Notes under the pieces: model-generated
Databases searched by the model: none
Told to the model about the DNA's origin: nothing
What the model saw: the letters and a program-made list of their open reading frames with translations, nothing else
IMG/VR virus record: IMGVR_UViG_3300045988_177667
Span: 1 to 42,798 of that record
Length of the DNA stretch: 42,798 bases
Direction: 5' to 3' (one strand)
DNA from: a virus
Part shown: positions 1-42,798 of the stretch, in pieces
How positions within the stretch are numbered: position 1 is the first letter of the stretch
How the letters are laid out: every line of letters starts with the position of its first letter
Made by a program: the position numbers and the translations under genes

Positions 1-55
1 TCACATTCGCACTCGCCACCCTCCACCCCAACTACTTCGTCCTCTGGACCGCACA
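1..55. repeat. 55-bp terminal overlap of the window, identical to 42744..42798 (circular-assembly closure)
   Basis: Bases 1-55 (tcacattcgcactcgccaccctcc...ggaccgcaca) recur exactly as the last 55 bases. The overlap lies inside the terL reading frame, which is continuous across it. Confidence 0.95.
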
Positions 56-1250
56 CCGCACACGCACCGCAGACGAAACATTCAACGACATGAAAGGAAT
101 GGCACAAATACCCGACATCGCCCCGTATGTGAATAAAATACGGCAAGCAAACGGACAGCAAGCCATCCTCTTCAACAACGGGTCACGAATCCTGTTCGGA
201 GCCCGCGAAGGAGGATTCGGACGCGGATTCCACGGCGTAGACATGATCCTCTTCGACGAAGCCCAAATCCTCGGCGCAGCCGCACTAGACGACATGATCC
301 CCGCCACAAACACCGCCCCGGATCCGCTCATCATCAAAATTGGGACACCGCCAAAACCAAAAGACCCATCCGAAGCGTTCAGCGAATTCCGCAACCTCGC
401 CCTGCAAGGCGAAATAAAAGACGGCCTCTACCTCGAACTAGCCGCCGACTACGACGCTAACAGCGACGACAGGAAACAATGGGAAAAAGCCAACCCATCA
501 TACCCGCGCCGCACCCCCGAGTCCGCCATTCTAAGAATGCGCCGACAGCTCGGGGAAGAATCATTCCGACGCGAAGGCCTCGGAATATGGGACCGCGCCA
601 ACGACAGACTCGCAATCGACCCTGTCGCCTGGAACACCGCCACAATACGGCCAGAAAACACACCACACGGCATGCGATGGTGCGCCGCGATCAGGTTCGC
701 ACCCGACGGATCAACATGCGCCCTAGCCAGGGCAGGACACAAAGCCAACACGCCCACACACGTCGAACTGTGCACACACCAAGGCGTCCGCCGTATGAGC
801 GAGGGCACGCAATGGATAATCGACTACATTGCGGACACCAAAGACAGGTGGGCGCAAATCATCGTAGACGGAAAATACGGCGCCGGCGACACAATCGAAA
901 GACTCCGTTCGATCGGAGTACGCCCACAAGTCATCATCACCCCCACAATCACGCAAATAATAGACGCCTACAGCATGCTAGACGCCTCACTACGCGAAAA
1001 CACAATCACACACCTAGACGACATGCAACTGAGGACCGAGGCCGCTTCTGCTACTCCACGCCCAATCGGAACATCCGGAGGGTGGGCGTTACAGGCCCCG
1101 CCCGGCGCCACCGTAGCCGGCCTAGAAGCCTGCACGCTCGCAATGTGGGCGGCACGCACAACAAAAAGACGGCCCCGTTACAAGCCTTATGATAAAATCG
1201 AGAACGCCAATAGTAGAAATGATCGTGGCGGCGGAGTATTGTTCCTATGA
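3..1250 (+). CDS. terL: Terminase large subunit, C-terminal continuation of the ORF that starts at 42500
   Basis: The frame of ORF 90..1250 is open back to base 3 and joins in-frame with 42500..42798 through the overlap, for a total of 497 aa. It has a Walker B-like ILFDEAQ and sits directly upstream of the portal with an ATGA overlap. Confidence 0.85.
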   Translation, partial: TFALATLHPNYFVLWTAHRTRTADETFNDMKGMAQIPDIAPYVNKIRQANGQQAILFNNGSRILFGAREGGFGRGFHGVDMILFDEAQILGAAALDDMIPATNTAPDPLIIKIGTPPKPKDPSEAFSEFRNLALQGEIKDGLYLELAADYDANSDDRKQWEKANPSYPRRTPESAILRMRRQLGEESFRREGLGIWDRANDRLAIDPVAWNTATIRPENTPHGMRWCAAIRFAPDGSTCALARAGHKANTPTHVELCTHQGVRRMSEGTQWIIDYIADTKDRWAQIIVDGKYGAGDTIERLRSIGVRPQVIITPTITQIIDAYSMLDASLRENTITHLDDMQLRTEAASATPRPIGTSGGWALQAPPGATVAGLEACTLAMWAARTTKRRPRYKPYDKIENANSRNDRGGGVLFL

Positions 1251-2869
1251 CTGAAATTTATCCTGATGATGGGCGATTCGTTAATGCTACGCCGGCACCG
1301 ACCCGCATTTCCGGACTTCCCGACGACGACCGGGTAACATTTCTGCAACTGTGGCAGAAATGGCAGCAGCATTCGAACAAAAACAAGCTGCTTTCCGTCT
1401 ACTATGACGGCCACCGCGCTTTCCAGGACCTTGGTATCAGTATTCCGCCGCAAATGACGCGCACCAAGGCCGCGTTGGGGTGGCCTCAGAAAGTCGTCAC
1501 CATGCTCGCCAGGAGGCACGTATTCGAGGGCTACTCCCTGAACGGGGCGCCCGACGCTTTCGAAGCAAACGAAATACTCTCCGCGAATAACTATGATCTT
1601 GATCTCGCCCAGGCGATAACGTCCGCGTACAAGCATTCCTTTTCGTTGCTCACAGTGACGCGGGGGGATGAGACCATTGGTGAGCCGCCTGTCGTGGTGC
1701 AGGCCCGTGATGCGGAATGGTCCGCCGCACTATGGGACACTAGACGTCGCATAATCGAAGCCGCCCTCACAATCGATCAGACTGACAAGTACGGTCAGCC
1801 GGCCGGCGCCATCATGCACACACCCACCGCCATTTGGCGAATCGACGCCAAAGAGAACGGCGGCGGCTGGAAAGCAGAGAAGCTCGGAGACACGCCCAAC
1901 CGTATTTTCGTTGAAGCACTCTGCTACGACCCGCAGCTGAACCGGCCGTTGGGGCATTCACGAATCACCCGTGAAGTAAGATATCTCACGGACGCGGCGG
2001 TGAGGACACTGGTCCGCGCAGAAACGTCCGCCGAATTTTTCTCCTCCCCGCAGCGGTACGTGCTCGGTGCGGAAAGAGCAGATTTTGCCGGCCAAGACAG
2101 GTGGTCCGCAATCATGGCACGCGTACAGGTTTTGGAGCCGAATGAGAACGGAGACATTCCCAGCGTTGGGCAATTCTCACAAATGACTATGAGCCCTCAC
2201 CTGGAAATGTACCGTCAGCTGGCGCAAAATTTGTGTGCAGCCACAAACCTCCCTCAATCCGCTATCGGGGTATTCGCGGAGAACCCCGCCTCGGCTGAGG
2301 CGATGCAGGCGGCCGAGGCGGGGCTCGCGGACGAGGCCGAGTATCAGTGGCGCATTTTCACTGCCCCGTTGCGGCGCACACTGCAGAACATCGTTATGGT
2401 TCGGGATAAGCTCGACGAGCCGCCGCAGGAGTCGTGGAAGACCTCAGTGAAGTGGACCCCCGCCCGCTATTCCTCGCCGTCGTCTGCCGCCGATTTCGCA
2501 GTCAAAATGGTCAGTGCTTTCCCGTCATTGCAGGAGTCTCAGACTCTCATGCGGCGTGCTGGACTCACCGAGGACGATCTCGCAGATATCAACGCCGAAA
2601 ATCGTAAAAAGAATGCGATGTCTCTGCTTGATCGTGCTCTCGCCGCCACGAACAACGGGAATACCGTGGATGAGAACGGCGAGAACACCGAAAACAGTGA
2701 CGCGGCCAACAATGATGGCGACGATGGTGCAGACAACGCCGTCAACAATGTCAGCAATAACGGCAACGGTAGCGGCAATAACCTGAACCTTAATAACGCA
2801 CCCAATACAAAAAACAGGGTTAAGCGCAACATTAAACTCCCCGGCGGCACCAAAACACCAATAAACTAA
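1247..2869 (+). CDS. Portal protein (called by position and size), with an Asn/Gly/Asp-rich low-complexity C-terminal tail
   Basis: A 540-aa ORF whose start overlaps the terL stop (ATGA). Its size and its position between terL and the head morphogenesis gene are typical of portals. Confidence 0.7.
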   Translation: MTEIYPDDGRFVNATPAPTRISGLPDDDRVTFLQLWQKWQQHSNKNKLLSVYYDGHRAFQDLGISIPPQMTRTKAALGWPQKVVTMLARRHVFEGYSLNGAPDAFEANEILSANNYDLDLAQAITSAYKHSFSLLTVTRGDETIGEPPVVVQARDAEWSAALWDTRRRIIEAALTIDQTDKYGQPAGAIMHTPTAIWRIDAKENGGGWKAEKLGDTPNRIFVEALCYDPQLNRPLGHSRITREVRYLTDAAVRTLVRAETSAEFFSSPQRYVLGAERADFAGQDRWSAIMARVQVLEPNENGDIPSVGQFSQMTMSPHLEMYRQLAQNLCAATNLPQSAIGVFAENPASAEAMQAAEAGLADEAEYQWRIFTAPLRRTLQNIVMVRDKLDEPPQESWKTSVKWTPARYSSPSSAADFAVKMVSAFPSLQESQTLMRRAGLTEDDLADINAENRKKNAMSLLDRALAATNNGNTVDENGENTENSDAANNDGDDGADNAVNNVSNNGNGSGNNLNLNNAPNTKNRVKRNIKLPGGTKTPIN

Positions 2870-2876
2870 CACCATT

Positions 2877-3602
2877 ATGCTGTCAACCGCAGAAATCGGG
2901 GCATACGGGCGAGCAATAGACTCACTCGTCACGCTCGCCCAAAATGACTTACACACACTCTGGGCGCACGCCGCTAGACAGCGCCCCGAGCAAGCGCGCG
3001 ACCTTCTACTCGAACTCATGCCTGCCCTCGTAGACCAATACGGTAGTGCGGCCGCCGCAATCGCCGACGAATGGTACCGAGACATGCGACTAGACCAGGA
3101 TGTCCCCGGTGACGCCCCCACGGTACAAACGTCACTCACCCCACAGGGCGAAATTGACGACAGTGTCAGATTCAGTGCGGGCGCACTATACGCCGGAACC
3201 CCTGACATCGCCCTATCCTATCTGACCGGGGCGCTCATCCGATACGTCAGCGACGGAGCCCGCTCACAAATCGCAGACATGACATGGTCCGACCCGGAAG
3301 CCATGGGCTGGGAAAGACGAACACGCAACCCACAAGCATGCAATTTCTGCGTCATGCTCACAATGAACGAATGCTACTACCGCAGCCAGGGGACGGCATC
3401 GTTCGGGGCGCACGACAATTGCAAATGTGTCGCCGTCCCAGCATGGGACCCAACCTCACGCGAAGTTCCCGCGAAAGCATACACGCTCGCAGCCAGACAC
3501 AAAACTGAAAAAGGTCGCAAACGCCATCGTGAACTCGTCTCATCGTGGATAGACACACACCAGGAAGAGCTCACAGAATGGCGCACCCGGCCAATTGAAT
3601 GA
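2877..3602 (+). CDS. MuF/SPP1 gp7-like head morphogenesis (minor capsid) protein, putative
   Basis: A 241-aa ORF immediately after the portal. It has a C-terminal Cys cluster (CNFC...CKC). The call rests mainly on position. Confidence 0.5.
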   Translation: MLSTAEIGAYGRAIDSLVTLAQNDLHTLWAHAARQRPEQARDLLLELMPALVDQYGSAAAAIADEWYRDMRLDQDVPGDAPTVQTSLTPQGEIDDSVRFSAGALYAGTPDIALSYLTGALIRYVSDGARSQIADMTWSDPEAMGWERRTRNPQACNFCVMLTMNECYYRSQGTASFGAHDNCKCVAVPAWDPTSREVPAKAYTLAARHKTEKGRKRHRELVSSWIDTHQEELTEWRTRPIE

Positions 3603-3605
3603 TTG

Positions 3606-18999: not shown

Positions 19000-19015
19000 T
19001 GTTTCACGTGAAACA
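19000..19015. promoter_or_regulatory. parS: parS-type 16-bp palindrome TGTTTCACGTGAAACA (chromosomal ParB/Spo0J site consensus), copy 1
   Basis: Exact palindrome starting 2 nt after the stop of the last tail gene. Its right half forms the base of the adjacent terminator stem. Confidence 0.8.
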
Positions 19016-19054
19016 TTCCCCCTCACCACAGAAATCGTGGTGAGGGGGAATGTT
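19012..19054. terminator. Terminator hairpin between convergent operons (18-bp stem aacattccccctcaccac/gtggtgagggggaatgtt)
   Basis: Perfect 18-bp inverted repeat with a 7-nt loop. TTTT follows on the + strand. It lies in the 76-bp gap between 18998 (+) and 19075 (-). Confidence 0.7.
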
Positions 19055-19074
19055 TTCGTACCCGACGGAAGAGA

Positions 19075-25378: not shown

Positions 25379-25387
25379 TCGAATCGT

Positions 25388-25429
25388 AACATTCCCCTCT
25401 AGCAATCATCGTTGCTAGAGGGGAATGTT
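25388..25429 (+). terminator. Hairpin of the AACATT...AATGTT family (18-bp stem aacattcccctctagcaa/ttgctagaggggaatgtt)
   Basis: Perfect 18-bp inverted repeat with a 6-nt loop. TATAAT (25431..25436) follows immediately. Confidence 0.6.
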
Positions 25430-25486
25430 ATATAATATGCGTTAGCAACCCTGCAAAAACAATACGATAAAGAGGACATTAAACAC

Positions 25487-25858: not shown

Positions 25859-25867
25859 TTCATAAAC

Positions 25868-26116: not shown

Positions 26117-26166
26117 GAAACATTACTGCCCCCTACCGAACAAGTGGTAGGGGGCAGTAATGTTTC
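26117..26166. terminator. Terminator hairpin between convergent operons (21-bp stem gaaacattactgccccctacc/ggtagggggcagtaatgtttc)
   Basis: Perfect inverted repeat with an 8-nt loop. The right arm contains the left half of parS copy 2, and the left arm begins with a GAAACA half-site. Confidence 0.7.
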
Positions 26167-26176
26167 ACGTGAAACA
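26161..26176. promoter_or_regulatory. parS: parS-type palindrome TGTTTCACGTGAAACA, copy 2
   Basis: Exact 16-mer that overlaps the terminator stem. Confidence 0.8.
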
Positions 26177-26183: not shown

Positions 26184-26199
26184 TGTTTCACGTGAAACA
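26184..26199. promoter_or_regulatory. parS: parS-type palindrome TGTTTCACGTGAAACA, copy 3 (an 18-bp palindrome at 26183..26200)
   Basis: Exact 16-mer 23 bp centre-to-centre from copy 2. It ends 1-2 nt before the stop codon of the RuvC-like gene. Confidence 0.8.
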
Positions 26200-26686: not shown

Positions 26687-27744
26687 ATCTTTTCCTCTTT
26701 CCTCTTTCGTAGGCTTCGCCGCGACTTGTTCACGTTGACAATACTTTTCGTAGTGTCTGTGCGCACGCCGTCTACTTCAAGCCACAATGTGTCAGGCGCC
26801 ACCGGCTCCCCGCGACCTTTCTTCAGAGCCCACGGTGTGCCCGGTTCGCTCGGAAAAGGCAGATGTTTGTAGCACCATATTGCGCAATCCTGCGTGGAAT
26901 CAAAACGAAACTCCTCTTTCGGCACGTATCTTTTCATGTCGTAAATGCGTCGCATGAGTTTCGGGATAAGCCATTCCGGTACTTCTCTGTACATGCGAAT
27001 TGACGGGCTGCTGCACGGGCAGACCACAGTCCTACCGCCACTGAAATGCGAGACACGAAGCCACTTGTCTTCCCCGCAATTCACGCAACGCATGTGGAAA
27101 TGCTTATGACCATCTCTCATAATCTTCCATTCGGGGGATACTACTTCCCACTGCTCGAAGCGTCGCCCCACCATTTCCTGCTGCACGCCAGTCGTCGTCT
27201 TATAGGTTTTCTTGCCGTGGAGAATAAGACGATCGTGAGCTTCCCTCCTGCTCTCGGCGCGCACTACTGAAATTTCGCCGGGGCGAAATACGCCGTTCTC
27301 TGTGGCAAATTCCCAATCGAACACAACCGATGGGTTGAATTCGTTGTAGCACCATTCGATAGCCGACGACATGCCGTCGAACTCGAAATTATCTACACCG
27401 TTCCGCTCCCGCCATTTCCAAATCTTAAGACGAATATCATTGTAGGAGCGATACGGCATAAGCGTGCCATTCACCTCACAGTACTGGTTCGAGTACGGTG
27501 CGTCCGATGGACGATTCAGCACTATGTCGAGATTGCAGGGGGCGATCGGTTTAGTAATGTCGGGGCGTGTGAATCGCCACTTATTGTGCTCGGGGACTTC
27601 CAGATACTTGAAACACCATTCAATGGCGGCGTCAATCGAGGGAAATTGGAAGTTCTCGCTACTGGTGCGGTAGCTGAGCTGGGTGAGTCGGTTGGCGACT
27701 ATCCTGTACTGTTCGTATGATGGTTGCGTCATTTGCGTGTTCAT
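26683..27744 (-). CDS. Protein with three AIEWCY-type repeats and a zinc-ribbon-like Cys cluster, function unknown
   Basis: ATG at 27744 follows an intergenic hairpin and a GAGAAGAGAG Shine-Dalgarno. Three repeats are present (ENFQFPSIDAAIEWCFKYL, DNFEFDGMSSAIEWCYNEF, EEFRFDSTQDCAIWCYKHL). A Cys cluster CVNCGEDKW...VVCPCS is also present. Confidence 0.5.
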   Translation of the reverse strand: MNTQMTQPSYEQYRIVANRLTQLSYRTSSENFQFPSIDAAIEWCFKYLEVPEHNKWRFTRPDITKPIAPCNLDIVLNRPSDAPYSNQYCEVNGTLMPYRSYNDIRLKIWKWRERNGVDNFEFDGMSSAIEWCYNEFNPSVVFDWEFATENGVFRPGEISVVRAESRREAHDRLILHGKKTYKTTTGVQQEMVGRRFEQWEVVSPEWKIMRDGHKHFHMRCVNCGEDKWLRVSHFSGGRTVVCPCSSPSIRMYREVPEWLIPKLMRRIYDMKRYVPKEEFRFDSTQDCAIWCYKHLPFPSEPGTPWALKKGRGEPVAPDTLWLEVDGVRTDTTKSIVNVNKSRRSLRKRKEEKI

Positions 27745-32748: not shown

Positions 32749-33648
32749 TCACATCTCCAGTTGGAGGAGAGACAGCGCCCTACCCACGGCCACACTCACG
32801 TCACCACCGCACTCCAGCAGCCTCATGCAATCGAAAGTCGTGTGCGCCCTCCCGTCCGCGAGCGGATCATCCGCATGATGCGAGAAGACCAGACCACTGT
32901 TCAACATCGTCACACCCGGGGCCGTATCCCCGCCACGCGTATACCGCCACCGCCACCCCACCTGCTCGTAAGGCCAACCGAACAAACCAACAAGATCATT
33001 AAACCCGTATTTTGAATTGAATTCTCCAATCACCCCACCATAGCCACCATCAGGCACAGACGACGAAGAAACATCATCATTTTTCTCCTCGTACCCGATA
33101 TTCTCCAACCATTTATCAACATTCAAGCGGGCGCCGTCAATGAGCCAATGGCGCACCCTCAACCCAAGACGATGTGATGGCAGGAAAAAAGCTCGAGACG
33201 CCTCGGCACACGACCCGTCCCACTGGGACACGGGCCCCAACACACTAAAACACGTCCTACCGATCGCTTCGCACTCTCCCGCGGTCATGCTGCGAGTGCA
33301 CGGCAAAACAACGCGGAAACGCGGAGACGGAAAGGAAGATGACGCTGTCTCCCATACAATGCCGGCGAGATTCGCAGCACGCATACGATCCCCGACAAAA
33401 TCTTTCCGCGACCCATGGTCCGCATCCAAAACAATAGCAGACCGGAACACGAAATTTCTCTTCTGCCGCCTGCCCCCCGCAAGAATGCCAGCGAAAAACG
33501 CGGGGGCGTCATTCTTCTCGCATTTCGAGGGCGCCTCACACAAGGCGGCGAAATCGGTAAGGTTTACGCTAGTGGCACGCCACCCCGTGATGGAGCGAAC
33601 ATTGCCCGCTACCATCACGGGGAAACGCGCCCCGAAAACATCACTCAC
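32749..33648 (-). CDS. Putative primase/polymerase-like replication initiation protein
   Basis: A 299-aa ORF with an acidic IVLDADHG motif. It overlaps, and so is probably coupled to, the following helicase-like gene. The assignment is weak and made from memory. Confidence 0.35.
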   Translation of the reverse strand: MSDVFGARFPVMVAGNVRSITGWRATSVNLTDFAALCEAPSKCEKNDAPAFFAGILAGGRRQKRNFVFRSAIVLDADHGSRKDFVGDRMRAANLAGIVWETASSSFPSPRFRVVLPCTRSMTAGECEAIGRTCFSVLGPVSQWDGSCAEASRAFFLPSHRLGLRVRHWLIDGARLNVDKWLENIGYEEKNDDVSSSSVPDGGYGGVIGEFNSKYGFNDLVGLFGWPYEQVGWRWRYTRGGDTAPGVTMLNSGLVFSHHADDPLADGRAHTTFDCMRLLECGGDVSVAVGRALSLLQLEM

Positions 33649-35212
33649 TGTACGATGGTTCCGCTATCTGATCCCGCAGAATCGCCTCAACGAGATCATT
33701 ATCCACAATAGCCCCTTCCGTCCGAAACTTCACGCCCCGACGAAGAATATACTGCCGATACTCCTCCACACTCCGCGGAGACAAATTCTTCGCCTCCAAA
33801 ACCTGATACAAACGCGTCTCAGTCGGCGGATTACTACTGAAATCATCAACCATACGCGTCAAATCCGGAACAAAAACATAGTCGACCATTTTCAACGCGT
33901 CAGGCAGCCAGAAATCGGCGGCCAGGCTGAAAGCCTTCCTCACCGCGGACGATGACACGCTCATCTGCTGCTCAAAAAGAGACAGAATAGCAGCCACGCG
34001 CATAACATGATTCCCCATACGATCAATGACCGCCTGCACTGCCCGCTGGAAAGGCGACTCGCGGGCCGCCTCCCTACCCCAGGCTCGCACCGTTTCAACC
34101 CAAACATTCCGAGCAGACTCAGTCACAGTCATAGTCATTGGCGTATTGACAGGCCAAAATTCGGTGGCACAAGTGACAGTACCACGGAATTCATGCTGCA
34201 TCATACCCAACATTGTTGAAATGCGCTCGGAAGCATGCTCAACGAAACCATCGCCACCGTGCACGCCCCGGTCATTGTTGGTGACCCATCCGAAAGACGA
34301 CGGATCAGACTGGCGATTCTCCTCGTCCAACGCGAAAAGAATGCGCGGACCCCACCCAGTCTCAAACAAAGACTGTGACATACTATCGACTACGTCGCCG
34401 AGAATCCCAGTGCCGCAGAAAGCAAGAGAATGAGGAACCCTCTCACTATCAGCTCGCCTGACGCCGTCGTCTCCGACCCGCACTGACTCGACCGTTTTGC
34501 CCGAGTAGACGTCGGTCAAGAAACCGATGAGCCCACTACGATAACCCTCACCCTGTGACGCAGAATACATGTTCTGCAATTCGTCCACAAACATGATAGA
34601 CGCCCCGCCAGGACGCTGCGCCATCCGAAGATTCAAACCTTCGGCCGTCACATTCGACCCGAACAAAACATTCGCCATCAAGGAACGCTCGCACGGACTA
34701 TTATCAATAGTGTTCAGCAAATCTTTACGATCAGCCTCGAACCCTGCGATACTATTATTGATATCGTCCCGCTCCGTCCGATACTCATCAATATCGACAC
34801 GCCCACTCCTCTTTTCCAGGGATTCCAGGCGGCGGTACAGCATGCGGAGTGCTGAATCCAGCTCCTGCACGGCCGCCAAAGACCGAGACGAATCCATCCA
34901 GAACGCGCCCACGCAGTCTTCAAAAAAGCTACGCACCAAAGACTGCGCCGTCGTCTTCCTCGACAAAGTAGACGCCCCCAGACAATGCGAATACAGGGTC
35001 AACGGCACCATATTCTGCGCGTTCGCAGACAAATGAGTCCTCGCAGACAACGGGGCGGACACCATCGTCAAGAAAGTCGTCCACAAAAACCTGAGTGGCG
35101 TCTCCGGCGACCTGGACTGCAAATAGTCAATGATCCTGTCAACGAACCAATCATAGTGCACGCCCCCATCCGGGGACGCGAACTCGTAATCCGCAATCCT
35201 CTCAACACTCAA
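33641..35212 (-). CDS. DUF3987-like putative replicative helicase/NTPase
   Basis: A 523-aa ORF with a degenerate P-loop (CLGASTLSRKTT) and a Walker B-like IMFVDEL. It is paired with the primase-like gene. Confidence 0.4.
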   Translation of the reverse strand: MSVERIADYEFASPDGGVHYDWFVDRIIDYLQSRSPETPLRFLWTTFLTMVSAPLSARTHLSANAQNMVPLTLYSHCLGASTLSRKTTAQSLVRSFFEDCVGAFWMDSSRSLAAVQELDSALRMLYRRLESLEKRSGRVDIDEYRTERDDINNSIAGFEADRKDLLNTIDNSPCERSLMANVLFGSNVTAEGLNLRMAQRPGGASIMFVDELQNMYSASQGEGYRSGLIGFLTDVYSGKTVESVRVGDDGVRRADSERVPHSLAFCGTGILGDVVDSMSQSLFETGWGPRILFALDEENRQSDPSSFGWVTNNDRGVHGGDGFVEHASERISTMLGMMQHEFRGTVTCATEFWPVNTPMTMTVTESARNVWVETVRAWGREAARESPFQRAVQAVIDRMGNHVMRVAAILSLFEQQMSVSSSAVRKAFSLAADFWLPDALKMVDYVFVPDLTRMVDDFSSNPPTETRLYQVLEAKNLSPRSVEEYRQYILRRGVKFRTEGAIVDNDLVEAILRDQIAEPSYSE

Positions 35213-38656: not shown

Positions 38657-38851
38657 CCCCCCAGTGTGTGTGACTCGTGTCTCAGTGGGCTATGGGAGCT
38701 CCCACGGGCTTGCGCCGCCGCTCCGCCCGTCCCACACCCCTCTACACACAATGTGACAGAGAACACTCCTCCTGGGCCTTGGGCAACACAAGACCCAGGA
38801 GGCATTCTTATATCAACGAAACAGCAACGACCCGAGAGGAAGGCCACGAAA

Positions 38852-39196
38852 GTGAGCAACACCATCCACCGTACTGACGACCCCGCCCTCGAGACCATCG
38901 AGCTCGGCGCCATCTACCGGGTTCATGCTCCTCGCACCGGCGAGCCCTGGACCCTCTACACGACGGGTGACGATTGCGGCGTCGACTCGATCGCCCCGCT
39001 GGAGGTGCCCGACGGATGGGACGACTCCTACGAGTACGCGATGGTCGACGAGAACATTTGGTCTCGTCTCGCTCGCCTCGCCCATGACGCTTTCCTCGCC
39101 AACGCGATCCTTGAGGTCGCCATCGTTCCCGTCGTCGACGAGGAGGCGGACGCCGACTCGCACGCTCTGCTGCACCGTCACTCCTGGCCCTACTGA
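38852..39196 (+). CDS. Acidic hypothetical protein
   Basis: GTG at 38852 follows GAGAGGAAGG. The product is 114 aa. The upstream part of ORF 38666..39196 looks non-coding. Confidence 0.45.
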   Translation: MSNTIHRTDDPALETIELGAIYRVHAPRTGEPWTLYTTGDDCGVDSIAPLEVPDGWDDSYEYAMVDENIWSRLARLAHDAFLANAILEVAIVPVVDEEADADSHALLHRHSWPY

Positions 39197-39217: not shown

Positions 39218-39250
39218 GAGGCCCCATCTCCGACGAGGAGGTGGGGCCTC
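39218..39250 (+). terminator. Hairpin after 38852..39196 (gaggcccca/tggggcctc)
   Basis: A 9-bp GC-rich stem with inner CTCC/GGAG pairing. There is no clear U-tract. Confidence 0.4.
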
Positions 39251-39595
39251 AGTGCGTCTTAGATGGAGGAAAGGCGGTGTGTGATGGGTGTGTGATGTCG
39301 ACCACCGCACAGTGTCGATCTCTCACAGTTTCCGTTAACCTTCTGTTTACTTTGTTCACCTCCCGTTCACTTTCTACGCATGTGGGTTGTTTGCTAGCAA
39401 CTGGTTTTCTAGGACAAAAACACCCGTTTGTGTTACTACAATGTTGGTGCGTGTCGTCACACTTTCTGCCTTTGTAGCAAGGTTTTGCGCCAGAGAGTTC
39501 CTTGTGATTGCAACGTTTAGTCCCCGTTTGTGATTGTTTTGTTGGCAGTGTTTGTTGCTGGGACTTTAGTCTATATGCTACACTCGAGTAGACGA

Positions 39596-39675
39596 ATCGT
39601 CGAAGACGATCGGCGGCGCAGCCGCTGAGGAGCCCTAGCGACGCAAGCGAGCGTCAGCGCCGCCGGGTGTTTTCG
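39596..39675 (+). other. GC-rich compound hairpin followed by TTTT (orphan terminator or small structured RNA candidate)
   Basis: It contains atcgtc-gaa-gacgat. A 9-bp stem cggcggcgc/gcgccgccg then encloses a 37-nt GC-rich interior. ggtgTTTTcg follows. Confidence 0.35.
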
Positions 39676-39726
39676 AAGAGCTCGCCACTGTGTTGGGCCC
39701 AACCTATACTCTTAAAAGAGTACTAG

Positions 39727-39765
39727 AATTAGACACTGTCTAGCTGTGTTAGACAGTGTCTAATT
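39727..39765. promoter_or_regulatory. Paired palindromic operator-like sites AATTAGACAcTGTCTA / TAGACAgTGTCTAATT
   Basis: Two 13-bp palindromes (TAGACAnTGTCTA) lie 20 bp centre-to-centre. Together they form a 16-bp inverted repeat with a 7-bp spacer. Confidence 0.5.
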
Positions 39766-39910
39766 AGGGAATATGTGTTGTAACGTAATTAGTGTTCAAT
39801 GGTGAACATGGTGATCGTTAACAGTGAACAGTGTGTGGTGAGGACAACAATGCTGCTGTAGTGGTACACAACATACACACCTATTAAGTACACAAACCCA
39901 GAAACAATAA

Positions 39911-39970
39911 GGCGCGTGTTGTGTTACGTGCGTGCTCGCAGAGCTGCGCGCGCACTACACAACACACGCC
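39911..39970. repeat. Structured hairpin element, copy A (conserved 35-nt core, 14-bp outer stem)
   Basis: The sequence is ggcgcgtgttgtgt-tacgtgcgtgctcgcagagctgcgcgcgcact-acacaacacacgcc. The core matches copy B at 33 of 35 positions. Confidence 0.6.
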
Positions 39971-40047
39971 AACCCACAAACAAAGAGAAGAAGAAAAGCG
40001 AGGAGAGGAGGAAGAAGAAGGAAGAGGAGGAAGCAACAGAGAGAGTA

Positions 40048-40105
40048 GTGTTAGACGGTGGAGGCGCTCGTCTCGCTGACGCTGCGACGCGCCACCACCT
40101 AACAC
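40048..40105. repeat. Third imperfect GTGTT...AACAC hairpin
   Basis: gtgttag/ctaacac, ggtgg/ccacc and ggcgc/gcgcc are paired segments separated by bulges. Confidence 0.4.
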
Positions 40106-40139
40106 GACACAAAAAGAAGAGCAAAGAAGAAGAAACACG

Positions 40140-40484
40140 GTGAGCAGAACAAGCACAAAAGAACACAAACAATTCAGAAAACAAGTACTCGCCAGAGCAC
40201 AACAAATGGGCATCACACACTGCCCAGCATGCGGAACCAAACTCCAATACAACAACAACGGACAACGCAAACCCAACAGTGCCGAAGCCGACCACATAAT
40301 CCCAGCCTCGTTAGGCGGAACCAACCACCCAGACAACGGGCGAGTCCTCTGCGCCAAATGCAACAGCAGACGCGGCAACGGACGAGGAGGAAAAGGAAGA
40401 GCACGCCACTACCAGAAAAACGAAAACGAACGAGACAGACTACCCGTAGCCGTCATGCCCACCGAACACACCAACACATGGTGA
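40140..40484 (+). CDS. HNH endonuclease (terminase-associated type, judged by position)
   Basis: The 114-aa product reads HCPACGTKL...EADHIIPASLGGTNHPDNGRVLCAKCNSRRGN, the classic HNH with Cys pairs. It has a GTG start. It is located upstream of terS/terL, as in HK97-like cos phages. Confidence 0.8.
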   Translation: MSRTSTKEHKQFRKQVLARAQQMGITHCPACGTKLQYNNNGQRKPNSAEADHIIPASLGGTNHPDNGRVLCAKCNSRRGNGRGGKGRARHYQKNENERDRLPVAVMPTEHTNTW

Positions 40485-40580
40485 ATCACCCACCGCCATT
40501 CCAGCAGCAGAAGAAAGACGGGACACAGAGAAAGCGAGGAGAAGAAGAGACAGAGAAGAAGAAACAAAGGAAGACGCAAT

Positions 40581-40637
40581 GGTGTTCGGGGATAACGTGC
40601 GTGCTCGCAGGGCTGCGCGCGCACTACCCCGAACACC
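40581..40637. repeat. Structured hairpin element, copy B
   Basis: The sequence is ggtgttcgggg-ataacgtgcgtgctcgcagggctgcgcgcgcacta-ccccgaacacc. The perfect 11-bp outer stem differs in sequence from copy A but keeps complementarity. Confidence 0.6.
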
Positions 40638-41532
40638 AACACACAAAGGAAGAAGAAGAGGAAGAAGAAGAGAATACGGGAACAGTGAACTAAGACAAGA
40701 CACCACACACCCACCACCACCACCATTCCACAATACGCAACACAATGCGACACGACATGCACCACTACCACCGCACACGTTACAACATGACTGATGTGCA
40801 GACAGTAAACACCGCACGCCCTTCCACCCAACACAAACCATCACCGCCATCCCACAATGACACACCCCCTGACACAAAGACACCACCCTAAACCAACAAT
40901 GCTGTGACAGCAAACACACAGATGGGGAGAAGGGAAGAGGAAAGAGAAGAATGAGACACAGTCTCACCACAATGCCGCCCCCGCACCACCGCACTTCCTC
41001 CACCCCGCAACACAAGAGGAACAAGACAACACAAGAGAGACGGGAACAACATGAAGGGGATGACCCAACCCAACACAGGACACCACAGCACACACCACCC
41101 CCCGCCATTCAACGCGGCCACCACACAAACAGGAGAGGGACACCGATACAAATGGGAGGGGACACCAACATCAGACAGGGAGGTCAGTACTGCAACACCC
41201 GCCCTTCACTCACCATGCCACCCCCATCCACCATGCCACCCCACCATCCACACTGCCCCCACCCACCACCAATGCGAGGGGGGAGCAGACAGAGGATACC
41301 CCACCACAGACGAACACACACCCACACACACACACCGCACACCCGGCAAGACACAGCACACGACACGACCGCAGTACCGATGAGTACTGCACCGGGATAG
41401 GCGGGGCACGGGCCACACGCACTGACCGGGCAGGACAGCAGCAGCACACACCACCGCCATTCCACACACCACACACCAACGAGGATGGACACCATCCACT
41501 GTCTCACCTCACACTGTTCGCGTTCATACAAC

Positions 41533-41650
41533 CAACGAACGATCATGATCAACGACGATCAATGATCATCGTTCAATGATTGATCAACGAACAATGAACG
41601 ATGAACATGATGATGATCAATGATGATCAACAACGAACATGATCAACATG
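41533..41650. repeat. Iteron-like array rich in GATC (TGATCAAYRA and CAACGAAC words)
   Basis: Eight GATC sites lie at 41541, 41547, 41557, 41564, 41582, 41615, 41625 and 41641. (T/C)GATCAA occurs six times and CAACGAAC three times. Confidence 0.6.
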
Positions 41651-41766
41651 ATGATGAACACACGACGATGATGTGATGCATGACATGCATACCAATACCA
41701 TGCACCATGCATGGTGCCAACGCACGCCACAAGGCAATCGCATAACGCACAAACGCACAAACGCAT

Positions 41767-41811
41767 AAAAATGCATAAAAACAAAAGAAATGTTACAAAA
41801 ACATGCAAAAA
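41767..41811. other. Phased A-tracts (predicted intrinsically bent DNA)
   Basis: A5 runs begin at 41767, 41777, 41797 and 41807, with A4/A3 runs at 41783 and 41788. This gives a 10-bp phasing. Confidence 0.5.
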
Positions 41812-42044
41812 CATTCAAGGCACAATCCAACGATGGCGTTCAAAAAAACCATGGCAACAAAACGAGACGAACAAAAAGGGGGCCCCAAACCCGTAAGGGA
41901 TCCCTTAAAGTAGGACCCGCATCACAAAACAAGACAGGGAACGGAACAAACGAGACGCACACCACACAATTTATGTGATGGGGGCCACTCCCCCTCCCCC
42001 ATCCGGCCGCGAACACCCCGAAGGTCTGCCCATCCCTCCCTGCT

Positions 42045-42171
42045 TGTGGAAAACCCTGTGGATAACTCCAGTAACCCATGCCACAATGTGATCGCCATCA
42101 TGTGGAAAACTCCCAAACCTGTGGAAAACCCTGTGGATAACTTTCTAGCTTGTGGATAACCCTGTGGAAAA
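42045..42171 (-). promoter_or_regulatory. Cluster of seven co-oriented DnaA-box-like 9-mers (TTATCCACA x3 and TTTTCCACA x4 on the - strand)
   Basis: TGTGGATAA occurs at 42057, 42132 and 42151. TGTGGAAAA occurs at 42045, 42101, 42120 and 42163. Six of these form three 22-bp units with 12-bp box spacing. Confidence 0.6.
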
Positions 42172-42201
42172 CTCTTGCCGGACGTGACCAGTATCACCAC
42201 A

Positions 42202-42207
42202 TATAAT
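42202..42207 (+). promoter_or_regulatory. TATAAT -10 hexamer 7 nt upstream of the 42215 ATG (possible leaderless late transcript)
   Basis: The sequence is cacaTATAATaggaaacATG. No convincing -35 was found. The last DnaA box lies about 31 bp upstream. Confidence 0.35.
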
Positions 42208-42214
42208 AGGAAAC

Positions 42215-42496
42215 ATGACAACCCACACAAACACCACAATCACCATATACGAACCCAACAGCCCCGCACCCATCACAGACGCCACAAACACAGGCAACCC
42301 AACACTCATACGCCAAGCACTCGCACACAAAATCGCCACCGTCATAGACGACCCCAGAACAGGCGACACAGCACTCACAAAACTCACCGCACAACTCATA
42401 CAAATCACAGACCAACTCGCCACCACACAAAACGAAAACACACAAACACACACCCCCGACATTCCAAACGAAACACAAACCTGGGACGGCATCTAA
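42215..42496 (+). CDS. Candidate small terminase subunit (called by position only)
   Basis: A 93-aa Thr/Gln-rich ORF that ends 4 nt before the terL ATG. Confidence 0.35.
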   Translation: MTTHTNTTITIYEPNSPAPITDATNTGNPTLIRQALAHKIATVIDDPRTGDTALTKLTAQLIQITDQLATTQNENTQTHTPDIPNETQTWDGI

Positions 42497-42499
42497 AAA

Positions 42500-42798
42500 A
42501 TGAGCGAAAAACACCTAAGCGAAATCGCCGCCCACCTCACCCTCCCAGAAAACATCACACACACCGCCTGGCCACCAGTCCAACGCCGCCTCCAAGAAAT
42601 GCAATACCCCCTCGACATATGGCAGCAAGACTGGCTCAAAGCAATCCTCGCAAAAAGAAAAGACGGCCACTACGCCGCCAGCATCGACGGAATCCAAGCC
42701 AGCATCCCCAGACAGGTCGGCAAAACATACACAATCGGCGGCCTCACATTCGCACTCGCCACCCTCCACCCCAACTACTTCGTCCTCTGGACCGCACA
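42500..42798 (+). CDS. terL: Terminase large subunit, N-terminal part (continues at base 3 across the circular junction)
   Basis: ATG at 42500. The product reads MSEKHLSEIAAHL...ASIPRQVGKTYTIGG with a P-loop. The frame is open to the window end and is in phase with 3..1250 through the 55-bp overlap. Confidence 0.85.
   Translation, partial: MSEKHLSEIAAHLTLPENITHTAWPPVQRRLQEMQYPLDIWQQDWLKAILAKRKDGHYAASIDGIQASIPRQVGKTYTIGGLTFALATLHPNYFVLWTA
42744..42798. repeat. Second copy of the 55-bp terminal overlap
   Basis: Identical to bases 1..55. Confidence 0.95.

What the first reader, a model, noticed from the sequence alone, without database searches (positions are those of the whole stretch)
1..42798. 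Host-origin-like cis elements (parS x3 and a DnaA-box cluster) in a phage with no recognisable integrase, repressor or partition genes
Reading all ORFs by eye, I see no tyrosine or serine recombinase. I see no CI/Cro-like pair, no deviant Walker A (KGGxGK) ParA and no ParB (GERRxRA-like) protein. Yet the genome carries the two signature cis elements of a bacterial chromosome origin region.

One coherent hypothesis is a non-integrating persistence or carrier state. In it, host DnaA and host ParAB(-SMC) replicate and segregate the phage DNA like a plasmid.

Alternative hypotheses are decoy sites that titrate ParB and DnaA to derail host segregation and initiation, or ParB-mediated compaction or silencing of phage DNA.
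Basis: inference. Interest (0 to 1): 0.85.

Follow-up and report, generated by a model that had tools for sequence, protein, structure and literature searches.

The report
Oral phage carrying host parS and DnaA sites
A non-integrating phage from human mouth bacteria has no partition, integrase or repressor genes, yet keeps conserved binding sites for the host chromosome-segregation protein ParB and probably the replication initiator DnaA, extending to non-sporulating hosts a trick so far documented only for Bacillus phage phi29.

Summary
The window is a complete circular assembly (true length 42,743 bp) of a siphovirus found in human oral metagenomes. It carries three perfect parS sites (19000, 26161, 26184). 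It also carries seven same-strand DnaA boxes at 42045-42171.

Pfam, PHROGs and motif scans find no integrase, HTH repressor, ParA or ParB.

Both motif sets recur in about 60-110 relatives and look selected. The parS sites diverge 1-5%, against 16-39% for the DNA beside them. The DnaA boxes vary almost only at position 3.

No relative was seen integrated, in an isolate genome or as a plasmid.

The idea is not new in kind. Virulent phage phi29 carries host-type parS sites, and one sits right after its last late gene and before a bidirectional terminator, as here. Tandem perfect parS pairs occur in at least 37 unrelated viral-contig clusters, including phi29-like phages.

The DnaA boxes begin 18 nt inside the probable cos left end and just upstream of the small-terminase-like gene. 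That is a lambda cosB-like position, next to iteron-like repeats and an AT-rich block. They could belong to an origin, act as a regulatory or titration array, or be terminase sites.

A ParB-mediated carrier state is plausible but unproven.

The parts
19000..19015 (.). parS1. A perfect host-type ParB site, starting 2 nt after the stop codon of the last late gene (18003-18998).
   Evidence: Divergence among about 61 relatives is 0.9%, against 16.5% in the adjoining intergenic DNA. A site within 1 mismatch (perfect in 53) is present at this position in all 61 relatives fetched.
19006..19059 (.). Bidirectional terminator-like hairpin. The base of its stem is formed by the right half of parS1 and by a decayed second parS (TGTTTTCGTACCCGAC, 19051-19066).
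   Evidence: -39.5 kcal/mol, z = -8.4, and it folds on both strands. In relative L191 the module is a perfect palindrome of parS, stem, loop, stem, parS (-63 kcal/mol). L191 and L227 keep a perfect second parS here, and L234 keeps one with 1 mismatch.
26117..26166 (.). Terminator-like hairpin after the lysis cassette. Its 3' arm runs into the left half of parS2, and its 5' arm carries a parS half-site remnant (GAAACATT).
   Evidence: -58.8 kcal/mol on the + strand and -60 on the - strand, z about -10.
26161..26176 (.). parS2, a perfect site.
   Evidence: Divergence is 4.7%, against 18% for the upstream intergenic DNA.
26184..26199 (.). parS3, a perfect site. It ends 2 nt before the stop codon of the RuvC-like gene (26201-26686, - strand).
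   Evidence: Divergence is 4.1%. The 7-nt spacer between parS2 and parS3 diverges 39%, and its length varies from 6 to 10 nt among relatives.
42045..42171 (-). Array of seven DnaA-box matches, all in one orientation, mostly as pairs with 12-bp spacing (TGTGGAAAACCCTGTGGATAAC).
   Evidence: repeat family D3. Box divergence is 6.8%, against 15% for the spacers. In 156 box instances from 24 variants of the array, only position 3 varies appreciably (T 118, A 36, G 2). The G at -1 is invariant and the G two bases after the box is nearly so (152 of 156).
41985..42044 (.). Nearly invariant GC-rich block that contains the probable physical genome end (cos). Three contigs (from two ENA assemblies and IMG/VR) start exactly at 42027.
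   Evidence: Conservation. Contig ends. L180, L183 and L273 start at TGCCCATCCC. At least 8 contigs in the reverse orientation end between 41999 and 42056. L033 carries a Nextera mosaic-end remnant at the junction.
41720..41880 (.). AT-rich block (32-40% GC against a 55% genome mean). It is highly conserved and contains short repeats (AACGCACA x3, CAAAAACATG x2). It is a candidate DNA-unwinding region.
41545..41660 (+). Iteron-like cluster. Nine of the window's 20 matches to ATGATCAAYR (<=1 mismatch) fall in these 116 bp.
   Evidence: About 0.03 matches would be expected in 116 bp. Tandem structure is shown.
40485..42214 (+). A 1.7-kb non-coding stretch that is very poor in T and rich in C and A. 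It lies between the HNH gene and the TerS-like gene and contains the three elements listed above.
   Evidence: Substitutions among relatives show no codon periodicity here, and indels are frequent. Composition. The ORFs in this stretch translate to low-complexity sequence.
42215..42496 (+). 93-aa gene in the small-terminase position. It is followed by the large terminase, which runs from 42500 across the assembly junction to 1250.
   Evidence: Codon-phase periodicity. Gene order HNH, TerS-like, TerL (Terminase_6N), portal. The 93-aa protein itself has no family hit.
32749..35212 (-). The phage's own replication proteins: a prim-pol-like primase (32749-33648) and a DUF3987 helicase (33641-35212). 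No DNA polymerase is encoded.
   Evidence: PF13148; phrog_256, phrog_10514, phrog_9765.

Best explanation
What is shown: the three parS palindromes and the seven-box array are real cis elements under purifying selection. They sit in a non-integrating cos-type siphovirus of about 42.7 kb that circulates in human oral metagenomes. Its host is probably an oral member of the Actinomycetota. The phage encodes no detectable ParA, ParB, integrase or repressor.

What is inferred for parS: host ParB loads at parS on the incoming or replicating phage DNA, as host Spo0J does on virulent phage phi29. The phage genome is then positioned, retained and partitioned by the host chromosome-segregation machinery whenever lytic development is slow or stalled. 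This would be a carrier or pseudolysogeny-like state rather than a stable plasmid prophage. The parS sites are built into the bases of the two bidirectional terminator hairpins at the convergent ends of the transcription units. ParB clamps loaded there would meet converging RNA polymerases and would disturb phage gene expression least.

What is inferred for the box array: it most likely binds host DnaA. It lies at the cos-proximal left end. After circularisation it is joined to an AT-rich block and an iteron-like repeat cluster. I read the whole 41.5-42.2 kb region as a composite control region. There, host DnaA assists or gates phage replication, or read-through into the packaging and late operon, and so couples the phage to the host's growth state. 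In phi29 the Spo0A boxes play that role.
For: Sites are real and beyond chance.

Selection on parS. The three sites diverge 0.9-4.7%, against 16-18% for flanking intergenic DNA, 39% for the inter-site spacer and 13.4% for the genome as a whole. A parS (perfect or one mismatch) is kept at the first junction in all 61 relatives that cover it, and at the second junction wherever the fetched stretch reaches it, although the spacing and the number of copies vary from 2 to 4.

Selection on the boxes. In 156 DnaA-box instances only position 3 varies appreciably.

No par, integrase or repressor genes.

Never seen integrated. Helicase homologues comprise more than 1,600 member sequences, and the longest contig is always 43.8 kb or less. 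All IMG/VR relatives are contigs of at most about 43 kb.

Precedent in phi29. According to PMC2731898, phi29 has five parS sites, Spo0J takes part in moving its genome into the prespore, and Spo0A boxes repress its lytic cycle. I re-found the phi29 sites. One lies at 17243-17258, directly after the stop of gene 16 and before terminator TD1. That is the same layout as parS1 here.

The same 16-mer occurs as tandem pairs in at least 37 unrelated viral clusters with 26-73% GC. Only 1 of 34 representatives has a ParB motif nearby, and one group has a phi29-type DNA polymerase. A host protein is therefore the common binding partner.

Origin-like ingredients sit next to the boxes. The combination of iterons, DnaA boxes and an unwinding element matches iteron-plasmid origins (PMC4980987).
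Against: There is no direct evidence of a carrier state. No relative occurs in any isolate genome, plasmid record or NCBI source.

The host has not been identified, so its parS and DnaA-box preferences are assumed from the general bacterial consensus.

The nearest characterised relatives carry no parS: Actinomyces phage LC001, Brevibacterium phage Rousseau, and prophages of Timonella and Propionimicrobium. The trait is therefore lineage-specific and dispensable for this kind of phage.

The relatives are close (helicase 85-95% identical), so part of the conservation is simply shared descent.

The phage has its own primase and helicase and does not obviously need DnaA.

The position of the boxes between the probable cos end and the TerS-like gene fits terminase recognition sites equally well.

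The phi29 mechanism depends on sporulation, which oral Actinomycetota are not known to do (my own background knowledge; the host was not identified here).
Confidence: 0.4

Rival explanations
1. Decoy or titration. During lytic replication, hundreds of genome copies present about 3 parS sites and 7 high-affinity DnaA boxes each. They soak up host ParB and DnaA. This dissolves the host partition complexes and blocks new rounds of host replication and division, to the benefit of the burst. No segregation of phage DNA is involved.
For: The sites match the strongest consensus forms and occur as multiples or tandem pairs. The gene content is that of a lytic phage, with no immunity or integration genes. 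No carriage in isolates has been seen. Tandem and even quadruple parS arrays occur in unrelated phages, some placed inside coding regions.
Against: ParB loads as sliding clamps, so one site can load many dimers and extra copies add little. The copy number is kept low and positionally fixed, with at least one site at each of the two terminator junctions in all relatives. It is not amplified. For phi29 the documented role is handling of the phage genome in cis, not titration.
Confidence: 0.2
2. A cis-acting architectural role within a purely lytic cycle. ParB bound at the parS-terminator modules acts as a roadblock or insulator that reinforces bidirectional termination between convergent operons. 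Alternatively it recruits SMC or forms a ParB condensate that organises replicating phage DNA.
For: parS half-sites form the base of both terminator hairpins. The ancestral module is a perfect palindrome of parS, stem-loop and parS. Both loci sit exactly at convergent transcription junctions. phi29 has a parS 3 nt from its bidirectional terminator TD1.
Against: In most unrelated parS-bearing viral contigs the sites lie between co-directional genes or inside ORFs, not at convergent junctions. The GC-rich hairpins are already very stable terminator-like structures. Convergent junctions are also simply among the few intergenic spaces available.
Confidence: 0.15
3. The 'DnaA boxes' are packaging signals. 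They would be a cosB-like array of binding sites for the small terminase, possibly with DnaA as an IHF-like helper, and not replication or titration elements.
For: Three contigs (two ENA assemblies and one IMG/VR entry) start at exactly 42027, and many others end within about 30 nt of it. This places a probable cos end 18 nt from the first box. The array fills the roughly 190 bp between that end and the TerS-like start codon at 42215. An HNH endonuclease gene lies upstream, as is typical of HNH-dependent cos phages. The conserved motif is longer than the 9-mer: the G at -1 is invariant and the G at -3 and two bases after the box are nearly so (144 and 152 of 156). Two of 10 other viral DnaA-box arrays that I examined also lie near terminase genes.
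Against: All 156 instances fit TT[A/T/G]TCCACA, with variation confined to the known degenerate position. A chance match of an unrelated protein's site to this motif is of order 1 in 100,000. The same genome mimics a second host origin-region motif, parS. The extended flanks resemble those of E. coli R boxes, but that is from my memory and untested.
Confidence: 0.25
4. A true plasmid prophage or mini-chromosome, which is the strongest form of the first reader's idea. Host DnaA would initiate replication at the box array and host ParABS would partition the circle stably, with lytic genes silenced by an unrecognised repressor.
For: Box array, AT-rich block and parS are present on one circle. Two operator-like dyads (TAGACA-N-TGTCTA, 39730-39762) lie just downstream of a promoter-like match in the early/late intergenic region, which hints at a DNA-binding regulator. 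Actinobacteriophages are known that persist extrachromosomally, with their own parABS systems (PMC7157519).
Against: No repressor, antirepressor or Rep protein was detected. No relative appears among 72,556 plasmid records, 185,579 species genomes or any NCBI-sourced protein. No DnaA-trio-like repeats flank the boxes by eye. The parS sites are far from the boxes. The known extrachromosomal actinophages carry their own parAB.
Confidence: 0.08
5. No function. The motifs are chance matches or passengers picked up from host DNA.
For: The nearest characterised relatives lack them.
Against: The chance expectation is far below one. The motifs diverge much less than flanking DNA. Motif-specific constraint is seen. 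parS has been acquired independently in dozens of viral lineages, including inside coding sequence.
Confidence: 0.03

Closest known systems
Bacillus phage phi29 (and Nf): host Spo0J/ParB-binding parS sites plus Spo0A boxes in a virulent phage
   Same: Both are virulent-type phages with no par genes of their own. Both carry several matches to the host chromosomal parS consensus. phi29 has four perfect TGTTCCACGTGAAACA sites and one weaker site in 19.3 kb. In both phages one parS sits immediately after the last late gene and next to the bidirectional terminator at a convergent junction (searches compared with 8, 90). Both also carry binding sites for a second host master DNA-binding protein near control regions: Spo0A in phi29 and DnaA-type boxes here (PMC2731898).
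   Different: phi29 is a 19-kb podovirus of a spore-former that replicates by protein priming. Its strategy ends in entrapment of the genome in the spore. The present phage is a 42.7-kb cos siphovirus with a primase-helicase module. It comes from the oral cavity, and its relatives infect non-sporulating Actinomycetota. Its second motif is the DnaA box, not the 0A box. Its parS sites are fused into the terminator stems.
Extrachromosomal (plasmid) prophages with their own partition systems: P1, N15 and actinobacteriophage parABS phages
   Same: These phage genomes do not integrate and rely on ParB-parS for inheritance. Several infect Actinomycetota. Some replicate from small origin segments without a RepA protein (PMC7157519, abstract seen).
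   Different: From my own knowledge of those systems, they encode their own ParA and ParB with cognate, phage-specific parS sites, and they have repressors and immunity. None of these genes is detectable here. Here the parS is the universal chromosomal consensus.
Iteron-plasmid and P1 oriR-type origins that use host DnaA (RK2 oriV, F, pSC101, P1)
   Same: They combine an array of DnaA boxes, directly repeated iteron-like sequences and an AT-rich unwinding region in a few hundred bp (PMC4980987, compared).
   Different: No Rep (winged-helix) initiator gene is detectable. The order of elements differs: iterons, AT-rich block, GC-rich block with cos, then boxes. The region is split by the probable cos end, so it exists only on circular or concatemeric DNA.
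Lambda cosB (terminase R sites plus a host IHF site between cosN and Nu1); this comparison rests on my general knowledge
   Same: An array of short direct repeats fills the roughly 190 bp between the probable cohesive end and the small-terminase gene. Lambda gives a precedent for a host DNA-binding protein taking part at such a site.
   Different: The repeat sequence is the DnaA box, not a terminase-specific motif. Binding by the TerS-like protein has not been tested, and the cos site is inferred only from contig ends.
Chromosomal origin region (oriC with origin-proximal parS) and the datA-type DnaA titration locus; this comparison rests on my general knowledge
   Same: Identical consensus motifs for ParB and DnaA, and closely spaced boxes in one orientation suited to cooperative DnaA binding.
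   Different: On the phage the two motif sets are 16-20 kb apart on a 42.7-kb circle. No dnaA, dnaN or parAB genes are present. No DnaA-trio-like unwinding module is evident next to the boxes.

Membership tests
phi29-type exploitation of host ParB by a virulent phage | The phage lacks its own ParA/ParB and lacks integrase and repressor genes | tested here: met
   Pfam and PHROGs scans of all non-structural ORFs, a Pfam scan of the tail genes and precomputed Pfam hits on the structural genes gave no hit. No Walker A' or GERRxRA motif occurs in the six frames.
phi29-type exploitation of host ParB by a virulent phage | Several genome sites match the host chromosomal parS consensus far beyond chance | tested here: met
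   Three perfect 16-mers against 0.11 expected at <=2 mismatches. As a control, phi29 gave 4 perfect sites and 1 weaker site. The host's own parS could not be read because the host is unidentified.
phi29-type exploitation of host ParB by a virulent phage | Host ParB/Spo0J binds the sites and is needed for segregation or retention of the phage genome | not testable with these tools
   This needs ChIP, EMSA and host parB mutants. The only indirect support is purifying selection on the sites.
phi29-type exploitation of host ParB by a virulent phage | The lytic cycle is suppressed by a host regulator (Spo0A boxes), with entrapment of the genome in spores | tested here: not met
   No Spo0A-box role can apply, because the relatives point to non-sporulating Actinomycetota. 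The second motif present is the DnaA box. The Spo0A-box motif (TGTCGAA) itself was not scanned. The analogy is functional and does not amount to membership.
Plasmid prophage / phage-plasmid | Encodes a partition system and/or a plasmid replication initiator | tested here: not met
   No ParA, ParB or Rep family hit.
Plasmid prophage / phage-plasmid | Recovered as an extrachromosomal replicon in bacterial isolates | tested here: not met
   No near match in PLSDB. The only plasmid record with a related portal is an ordinary integrase-bearing temperate phage without parS. No close relative occurs in 185,579 species genomes. No record is NCBI-sourced.
Plasmid prophage / phage-plasmid | Immunity repressor that maintains lysogeny | tested here: inconclusive
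   No HTH or repressor family hit. However, a unique pair of operator-like dyads lies at 39730-39762, and several small early proteins have no detectable family.
DnaA-dependent replication origin (oriC-like or iteron-plasmid-like) | Cluster of consensus DnaA boxes | tested here: met
   Seven boxes in 127 bp on one strand. The constraint pattern TT[T/A]TCCACA holds across 156 instances.
DnaA-dependent replication origin (oriC-like or iteron-plasmid-like) | Adjacent AT-rich unwinding element and, for plasmid-type origins, iterons | tested here: inconclusive
   An AT-rich block lies at 41720-41880 and an ATGATCAAYR cluster at 41545-41660. Both exist and are conserved. They are 165-500 bp from the boxes and separated from them by a GC-rich block and the probable cos end. 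No DnaA-trio-like repeats were seen by eye.
DnaA-dependent replication origin (oriC-like or iteron-plasmid-like) | Supports DnaA-dependent autonomous replication | not testable with these tools
   This needs cloning of the 41.5-42.2 kb region in the host.
cosB-type terminase recognition array | Repeats lie between the cohesive end and the small-terminase gene | tested here: inconclusive
   The position fits if cos lies at about 42027, as inferred from identical or clustered contig ends. The termini have not been determined experimentally, and the 93-aa 'TerS' has no family hit.
cosB-type terminase recognition array | Repeats are bound by the small terminase | not testable with these tools
   This needs protein-DNA binding assays.

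The most novel reading that the evidence does not exclude
Mimicry of host-chromosome cis elements may be a widespread and largely unrecognised third lifestyle device of 'virulent' phages in non-sporulating bacteria. By carrying the universal parS, and here also a DnaA-box array joined to an origin-like region only after cos circularisation, the phage genome would behave as a conditional mini-chromosome. Host ParABS/SMC would partition it and DnaA would gate it. This would allow heritable, non-integrated persistence in slow-growing oral biofilm cells without any phage-encoded immunity, integration or partition gene.
Probability: 0.22. Interest if true: 0.85.

Novelty: new variant of a known kind. 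Interest (0 to 1): 0.62.

Why it matters
If host ParB and DnaA really act on this phage, the strategy described for phi29 would not be a curiosity of sporulating Bacillus. It would be a general way for phages classed as lytic to persist without lysogeny genes. In phi29 a virulent genome is handled by the host segregation machinery.

That bears on a standing question: how apparently virulent phages stay abundant for months in human-associated communities.

It would also affect how lifestyle is predicted from genomes. Such phages are scored as virulent and might be considered safe for therapy.

The scan done here found tandem perfect parS pairs in at least 37 unrelated viral-contig clusters with 26-73% GC. 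This makes the question directly testable in several hosts.

Separately, a DnaA-box array sits 18 nt from a probable cos end. This suggests a link, not described as far as I know, between the host initiator and either phage packaging or an origin assembled by genome circularisation.

Tried and rejected
- **Hidden integrase.** The only unannotated proteins of integrase size are the 348-aa product of 26683-27744 (- strand) and the 335-aa DUF3310 protein. The 348-aa protein has only close relatives and no Pfam domain. It has no PDB sequence match. Its AlphaFold model is poor (pLDDT 48.6) and gave no fold match. The result is uninformative, but its secondary structure is rich in beta strands, unlike a tyrosine recombinase.
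- **ORFs in 40.5-42.2 kb.** Automatic gene callers place 222-aa and 120-aa genes there. I rejected them because substitutions show no codon periodicity, indels are frequent and the translations are low-complexity.
- **RNA genes.** Rfam at gathering thresholds and a tRNA scan found nothing.
- **Carriage in isolates.** The genome-contig scan found only distant prophages in Timonella and Bifidobacterium. PLSDB gave no near match. The Propionimicrobium 40.5-kb 'plasmid' looked promising but is a normal temperate phage with an integrase and HTH genes and no parS.
- **Deeper relatives carrying the motifs.** LC001, Rousseau and the Timonella, Bifidobacterium and Propionimicrobium elements have neither parS nor box clusters. 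Conservation could therefore be measured only within one tight clade.
- **Co-occurrence of the two motifs elsewhere.** Unrelated parS-bearing loci lack box clusters. Only 1 of about 112 unrelated box-array loci has a parS. The combination is therefore specific to this lineage.
- **A general rule for parS placement.** A rule that parS sits at convergent junctions does not hold across unrelated phages.
- **Host identification.** This failed because no tool available here names the host. It is inferred only from portal similarity (55% to a Schaalia phage, 57% to prophages of Actinomycetota) and from the oral origin of the samples.
- **Literature.** My searches found no paper describing host-type parS in phages of non-sporulating bacteria. 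The library is incomplete, so this is not proof that none exists.

Full report
**What the window is.** The first and last 55 nt of the window are identical, which is a k-mer overlap from assembly. The sequence is therefore a complete circular assembly of 42,743 bp, and the large terminase gene runs across the junction, from 42500 to 1250.

The gene order is typical of a cos-type siphovirus. It runs HNH endonuclease (40140-40484), a 93-aa gene in the small-terminase position (42215-42496), TerL, an SPP1-type portal, an HK97-type capsid protein, a 1,520-aa tape-measure protein and tail genes ending at 18998.

A leftward block (23269 to 19075) encodes a dCTP deaminase and a DUF3310 protein. A rightward lysis cassette follows (23247-26101). 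A long leftward early block (about 39000 to 26201) encodes a RuvC-like protein, DUF669, a Sak4-type ATPase, a Cas4-like exonuclease, an SNF2 helicase, a prim-pol primase and a DUF3987 helicase. No DNA polymerase is encoded.

Proteins identical to those of the window occur in human oral metagenome assemblies. The closest isolate by portal similarity is lytic Actinomyces phage LC001 of Schaalia odontolytica, at 55%. The next closest are prophages of Timonella and Propionimicrobium, at 57%. The host is therefore probably an oral member of the Actinomycetota, but I could not identify it.

**Checking the observation.** The 16-mer TGTTTCACGTGAAACA occurs perfectly at 19000, 26161 and 26184, and nowhere else even at three mismatches. 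The expectation is 0.11 sites at two mismatches or fewer.

Seven DnaA-box matches lie on one strand within 42045-42171. Three are TTATCCACA and four are TTTTCCACA. Most form pairs with 12-bp spacing. About 0.02 matches would be expected in a stretch of that length.

Pfam and PHROGs scans of every plausible ORF from 19075 to 42496 found no recombinase, HTH repressor, ParA, ParB or Rep protein. Both strands were included wherever the coding strand was unclear. A further Pfam scan of the tail genes and the precomputed Pfam hits on the structural genes agree. A six-frame scan for the ParA and ParB signature motifs found nothing. The factual part of the finding is therefore confirmed.

One qualification applies. 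The two motif sets are not clustered as they are at a chromosomal origin. They lie 16-20 kb apart, on roughly opposite sides of the circle.

**Are the sites selected?** Two scans of IMG/VR returned 56 and 61 loci from relatives, with helicase identity of 87-95%. All come from contigs of at most about 43 kb.

All 61 loci that cover the first junction keep a parS there (perfect in 53, one mismatch in 8). Loci that reach the second junction keep at least one. The spacer within the pair varies from 6 to 10 nt. A few genomes have one site instead of two at junction 2, and three genomes have two sites at junction 1.

I measured divergence over all aligned relatives:

| Region | Divergence |
|---|---|
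| parS1 | 0.9% |
| parS2 | 4.7% |
| parS3 | 4.1% |
| Adjacent intergenic DNA | 16-18% |
| 7-nt spacer between parS2 and parS3 | 39% |
| Genome mean | 13.4% |
| DnaA boxes | 6.8% |
| Spacers between the boxes | 15% |

In 156 box instances from 24 distinct versions of the array, every position of the 9-mer is essentially invariant except position 3 (T 118, A 36, G 2). That is the position at which DnaA-box consensus sequences differ among bacteria. The G before the box is invariant and the G two bases after it is nearly so (152 of 156).

The relatives form one tight clade, so part of this conservation reflects shared descent. The contrast between the motifs and the DNA touching them is nevertheless the signature of constraint.

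**Anatomy of the parS loci.** Both loci sit at the two convergent junctions of the transcription map. The first is between the late operon and the leftward 23-19 kb block. The second is between the lysis cassette and the early block.

Each locus is fused to a very stable GC-rich hairpin that folds on both strands (-39 and -59 kcal/mol, z about -8 to -10). The parS half-sites form the base of the stems. In relative L191 the first module is a perfect 31-bp-stem palindrome of parS, TT, CCCCCTCACCAC, loop, GTGGTGAGGGGG, AA and parS. In the window the distal copy has decayed. The second module has the same design.

**Lifestyle evidence.** Homologues of the helicase in a 5.8-billion-protein collection are all at least 85% identical. 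They stand for more than 1,600 member sequences. They never occur on a contig longer than 43.8 kb, and none comes from an NCBI record. A scan of one genome for each of 185,579 species found no close relative. PLSDB has no near match.

The phage is therefore not seen integrated, which agrees with the lack of an integrase. It has also not been caught as an episome in any cultured isolate. This neither proves strict virulence nor supports stable plasmid carriage.

**The known precedent.** Virulent phage phi29 carries five binding sites for host Spo0J (ParB), and Spo0J takes part in moving the infecting genome into the prespore. Host Spo0A boxes near the promoters and genome ends suppress the lytic cycle (PMC2731898).

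I re-derived the phi29 sites from NC_011048. There are four perfect TGTTCCACGTGAAACA sites and one weaker one. One lies at 17243-17258, immediately after the stop of gene 16 (17242) and 3 nt before the bidirectional terminator TD1. That is the same placement as parS1 here, where the gene stops at 18998, parS spans 19000-19015 and the hairpin follows.

So 'host parS on a phage with no par genes' is a known kind of thing. What differs here is the virus type, the replication mode, the probable non-sporulating host, the fusion of parS to the terminators, and the second motif.

Of the 118 loci I could read, 93 are unrelated to the window. They span 26-73% GC and fall into about 36 further sequence clusters. 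Only 1 of 34 representatives has a ParB signature motif in the fetched DNA.

One group of 11 loci encodes a phi29-type protein-primed DNA polymerase. Another is a siphovirus group of about 40 kb with 52% GC. It has three parS copies written into the C-terminal coding region of its portal gene, as repeated 'VSRET' peptides. A third group shares a 64%-identical tape-measure lysin domain with the window phage, so it may share its host.

Because the identical 16-mer recurs in lineages that share nothing else, the common binding partner is most simply host ParB. My literature searches found no description of this outside the phi29 family, but the library is incomplete.

**The DnaA-box region.** Substitution periodicity shows that 39250-40139 and 40485-42214 are non-coding. 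The ORFs that automatic callers place there are artefacts of an extreme composition.

The second stretch contains, in order:
- a cluster of nine ATGATCAAYR repeats at 41545-41660, where 0.03 would be expected;
- a conserved AT-rich block at 41720-41880, with 32-40% GC;
- a nearly invariant GC-rich block at 41985-42044;
- the seven boxes;
- a TATAAT at 42203-42208 (read directly from the sequence);
- the TerS-like start codon at 42215.

Contig ends give a further clue. Three contigs (from two ENA assemblies and IMG/VR) start at exactly 42027. At least eight others end between 41999 and 42056, and one of these carries a Nextera adapter remnant at the junction. This points to the physical cohesive end.

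If that is right, the boxes occupy nt 19-145 of the packaged genome. That is the position of cosB in lambda. The iteron-like and AT-rich elements would then lie at the other end of the linear DNA and would be joined to the boxes only after circularisation.

Three readings remain open:
- The boxes are a DnaA-assisted origin of the iteron-plasmid type (RK2, P1; PMC4980987), but without a recognisable Rep protein.
- They are a DnaA-dependent gate or roadblock in front of the packaging and late genes, or a titration array.
- They are small-terminase recognition sites that happen to look like DnaA boxes, or that use DnaA as an accessory.

The exact fit of 156 instances to TT[T/A/G]TCCACA, together with the presence of a second host-origin motif in the same genome, makes DnaA binding likely. 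I put it at about 0.75-0.8. The function stays unresolved.

They occur in varied contexts, including beside O-like replication initiators, integrases and terminases. They almost never occur together with parS.

**Most likely mechanism and its status.** It is shown that the sites exist, that they are constrained, that the phage lacks its own partition, integration and immunity genes, and that it is never found integrated.

It is inferred from established ParB biology and from the phi29 precedent that host ParB loads at parS, and that the phage genome is handled by the host segregation machinery. The benefit would be retention and partition of the genome when lytic growth is delayed. Placement at convergent junctions may limit interference between ParB clamps and transcription.

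I give this carrier or retention reading about 0.4. I give a decoy or titration role about 0.2. I give a purely architectural or terminator-reinforcing role about 0.15. I give a true DnaA-driven plasmid prophage about 0.08. For the box array alone, the terminase-site reading gets about 0.25. None of these can be separated by sequence analysis. The experiments that would separate them are listed under next steps.

**Verdict.** The finding is real and well observed. Its central idea has a direct precedent in phi29, so it is a new variant of a known kind and not a new category.

Three things raise its interest:
- It extends the phenomenon to a common oral siphovirus of probably non-sporulating hosts.
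- The same device is widespread among unrelated uncultured phages.
- The parS-terminator fusion and the DnaA-box array next to the probable cos end are unusual.

Noticed in passing
window 39900-42798 and 1-1250 (+ strand): Thymine is extremely depleted on the + strand: T 10.5%, A 36.8%, C 32% over 39900-42743. The depletion spans the non-coding DNA and the synonymous sites of TerL, where third codon positions are T 6% and A 32%. The capsid gene, by contrast, has A 3% and T 23% at third positions. An untranslated 1.7-kb RNA with C exceeding G would be a good Rho-loading substrate, so the late operon may be controlled by antitermination. The cause is unknown.
   Followed up: partly
window 39727-39765: Two 13-bp dyads, TAGACA(C/G)TGTCTA, lie 20 bp apart. 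Together they form a perfect inverted repeat with 16-nt arms. The perfect motif occurs nowhere else in the genome (the only other matches have 2 mismatches). They sit just downstream of a -35/-10 match (39682-39710) in the AT-rich region between the early and late genes. They look like operators, yet no HTH protein was detected in the phage.
   Followed up: partly
window 39926-39967 and 40595-40636: A 42-nt repeat that forms a hairpin (88% identical copies, arms of about 25 nt) flanks the HNH endonuclease gene on both sides. It could be an RNA element (antitermination or processing) or the boundary of a mobile HNH cassette.
   Followed up: no
window 41999-42056, especially 42027: This is the probable physical genome end (cos). 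Three contigs (two ENA assemblies and IMG/VR) start at exactly 42027. At least eight others end within about 30 nt of it, and one has a Nextera mosaic-end remnant fused at the junction. The surrounding GC-rich block (41985-42044) is nearly invariant among relatives.
   Followed up: partly
window 26683-27744 (- strand): A 348-aa protein two genes away from the parS pair has internal repeats (F-x-F...AIEWC) and a Cys-rich motif (CVNCG...CPC). Only close relatives exist and no family matches. The AlphaFold model is of low confidence and gave no fold match. It is the largest protein of unknown function in the replication module.
   Followed up: yes
L090 577-2103 and related loci L060, L070, L095, L111 (IMG/VR contigs of about 40 kb, 52% GC): An unrelated oral siphovirus group encodes three parS copies inside the C-terminal extension of its portal protein, as repeated (N/D)VSRET peptides. 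The next gene starts with MFHVKH, which is parS read in another frame. This shows that parS is retained even at a cost to coding sequence.
   Followed up: partly
L121 (15.7-kb contig) and 10 related loci; L062 group (28 loci, 38% GC): Small picovirus-like genomes carry 2-4 perfect parS sites (L121, for example, has three). The L121 polymerase matches phi29-type DNA_pol_B_2 (E = 7e-54), but the L062 polymerase-like ORF gave no Pfam hit. The phi29 parS strategy therefore seems common among uncultured phi29-like phages, some from human-derived samples.
   Followed up: partly
window 21780-22133 (- strand): This gene encodes a proline-rich membrane protein of low complexity (PTPAPPPP...). Thirteen independent contigs of relatives break within it (21855-22134), so it is a recurrent assembly breakpoint and not a biological end.
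   Followed up: no
window 18003-18998 and 8458-13020: The last late gene is a Spherulin4-like protein (PF12138, E = 1e-14), possibly a glycan-degrading tail accessory. The tape-measure protein carries an NlpC/P60 peptidase domain. That domain is 64% identical to one in an otherwise unrelated parS-bearing phage group (L135, L136).
   Followed up: no
window 38666-39196 (+ strand): A lone rightward gene encodes an acidic protein of about 113 aa, probably starting at an internal GTG. It is embedded among leftward early genes, lies in a region missing from about a third of relatives, and is bracketed by strong hairpins (38768-38802 and 39218-39250). This is a moron-like or immunity-like position, and the function is unknown.
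   Followed up: partly
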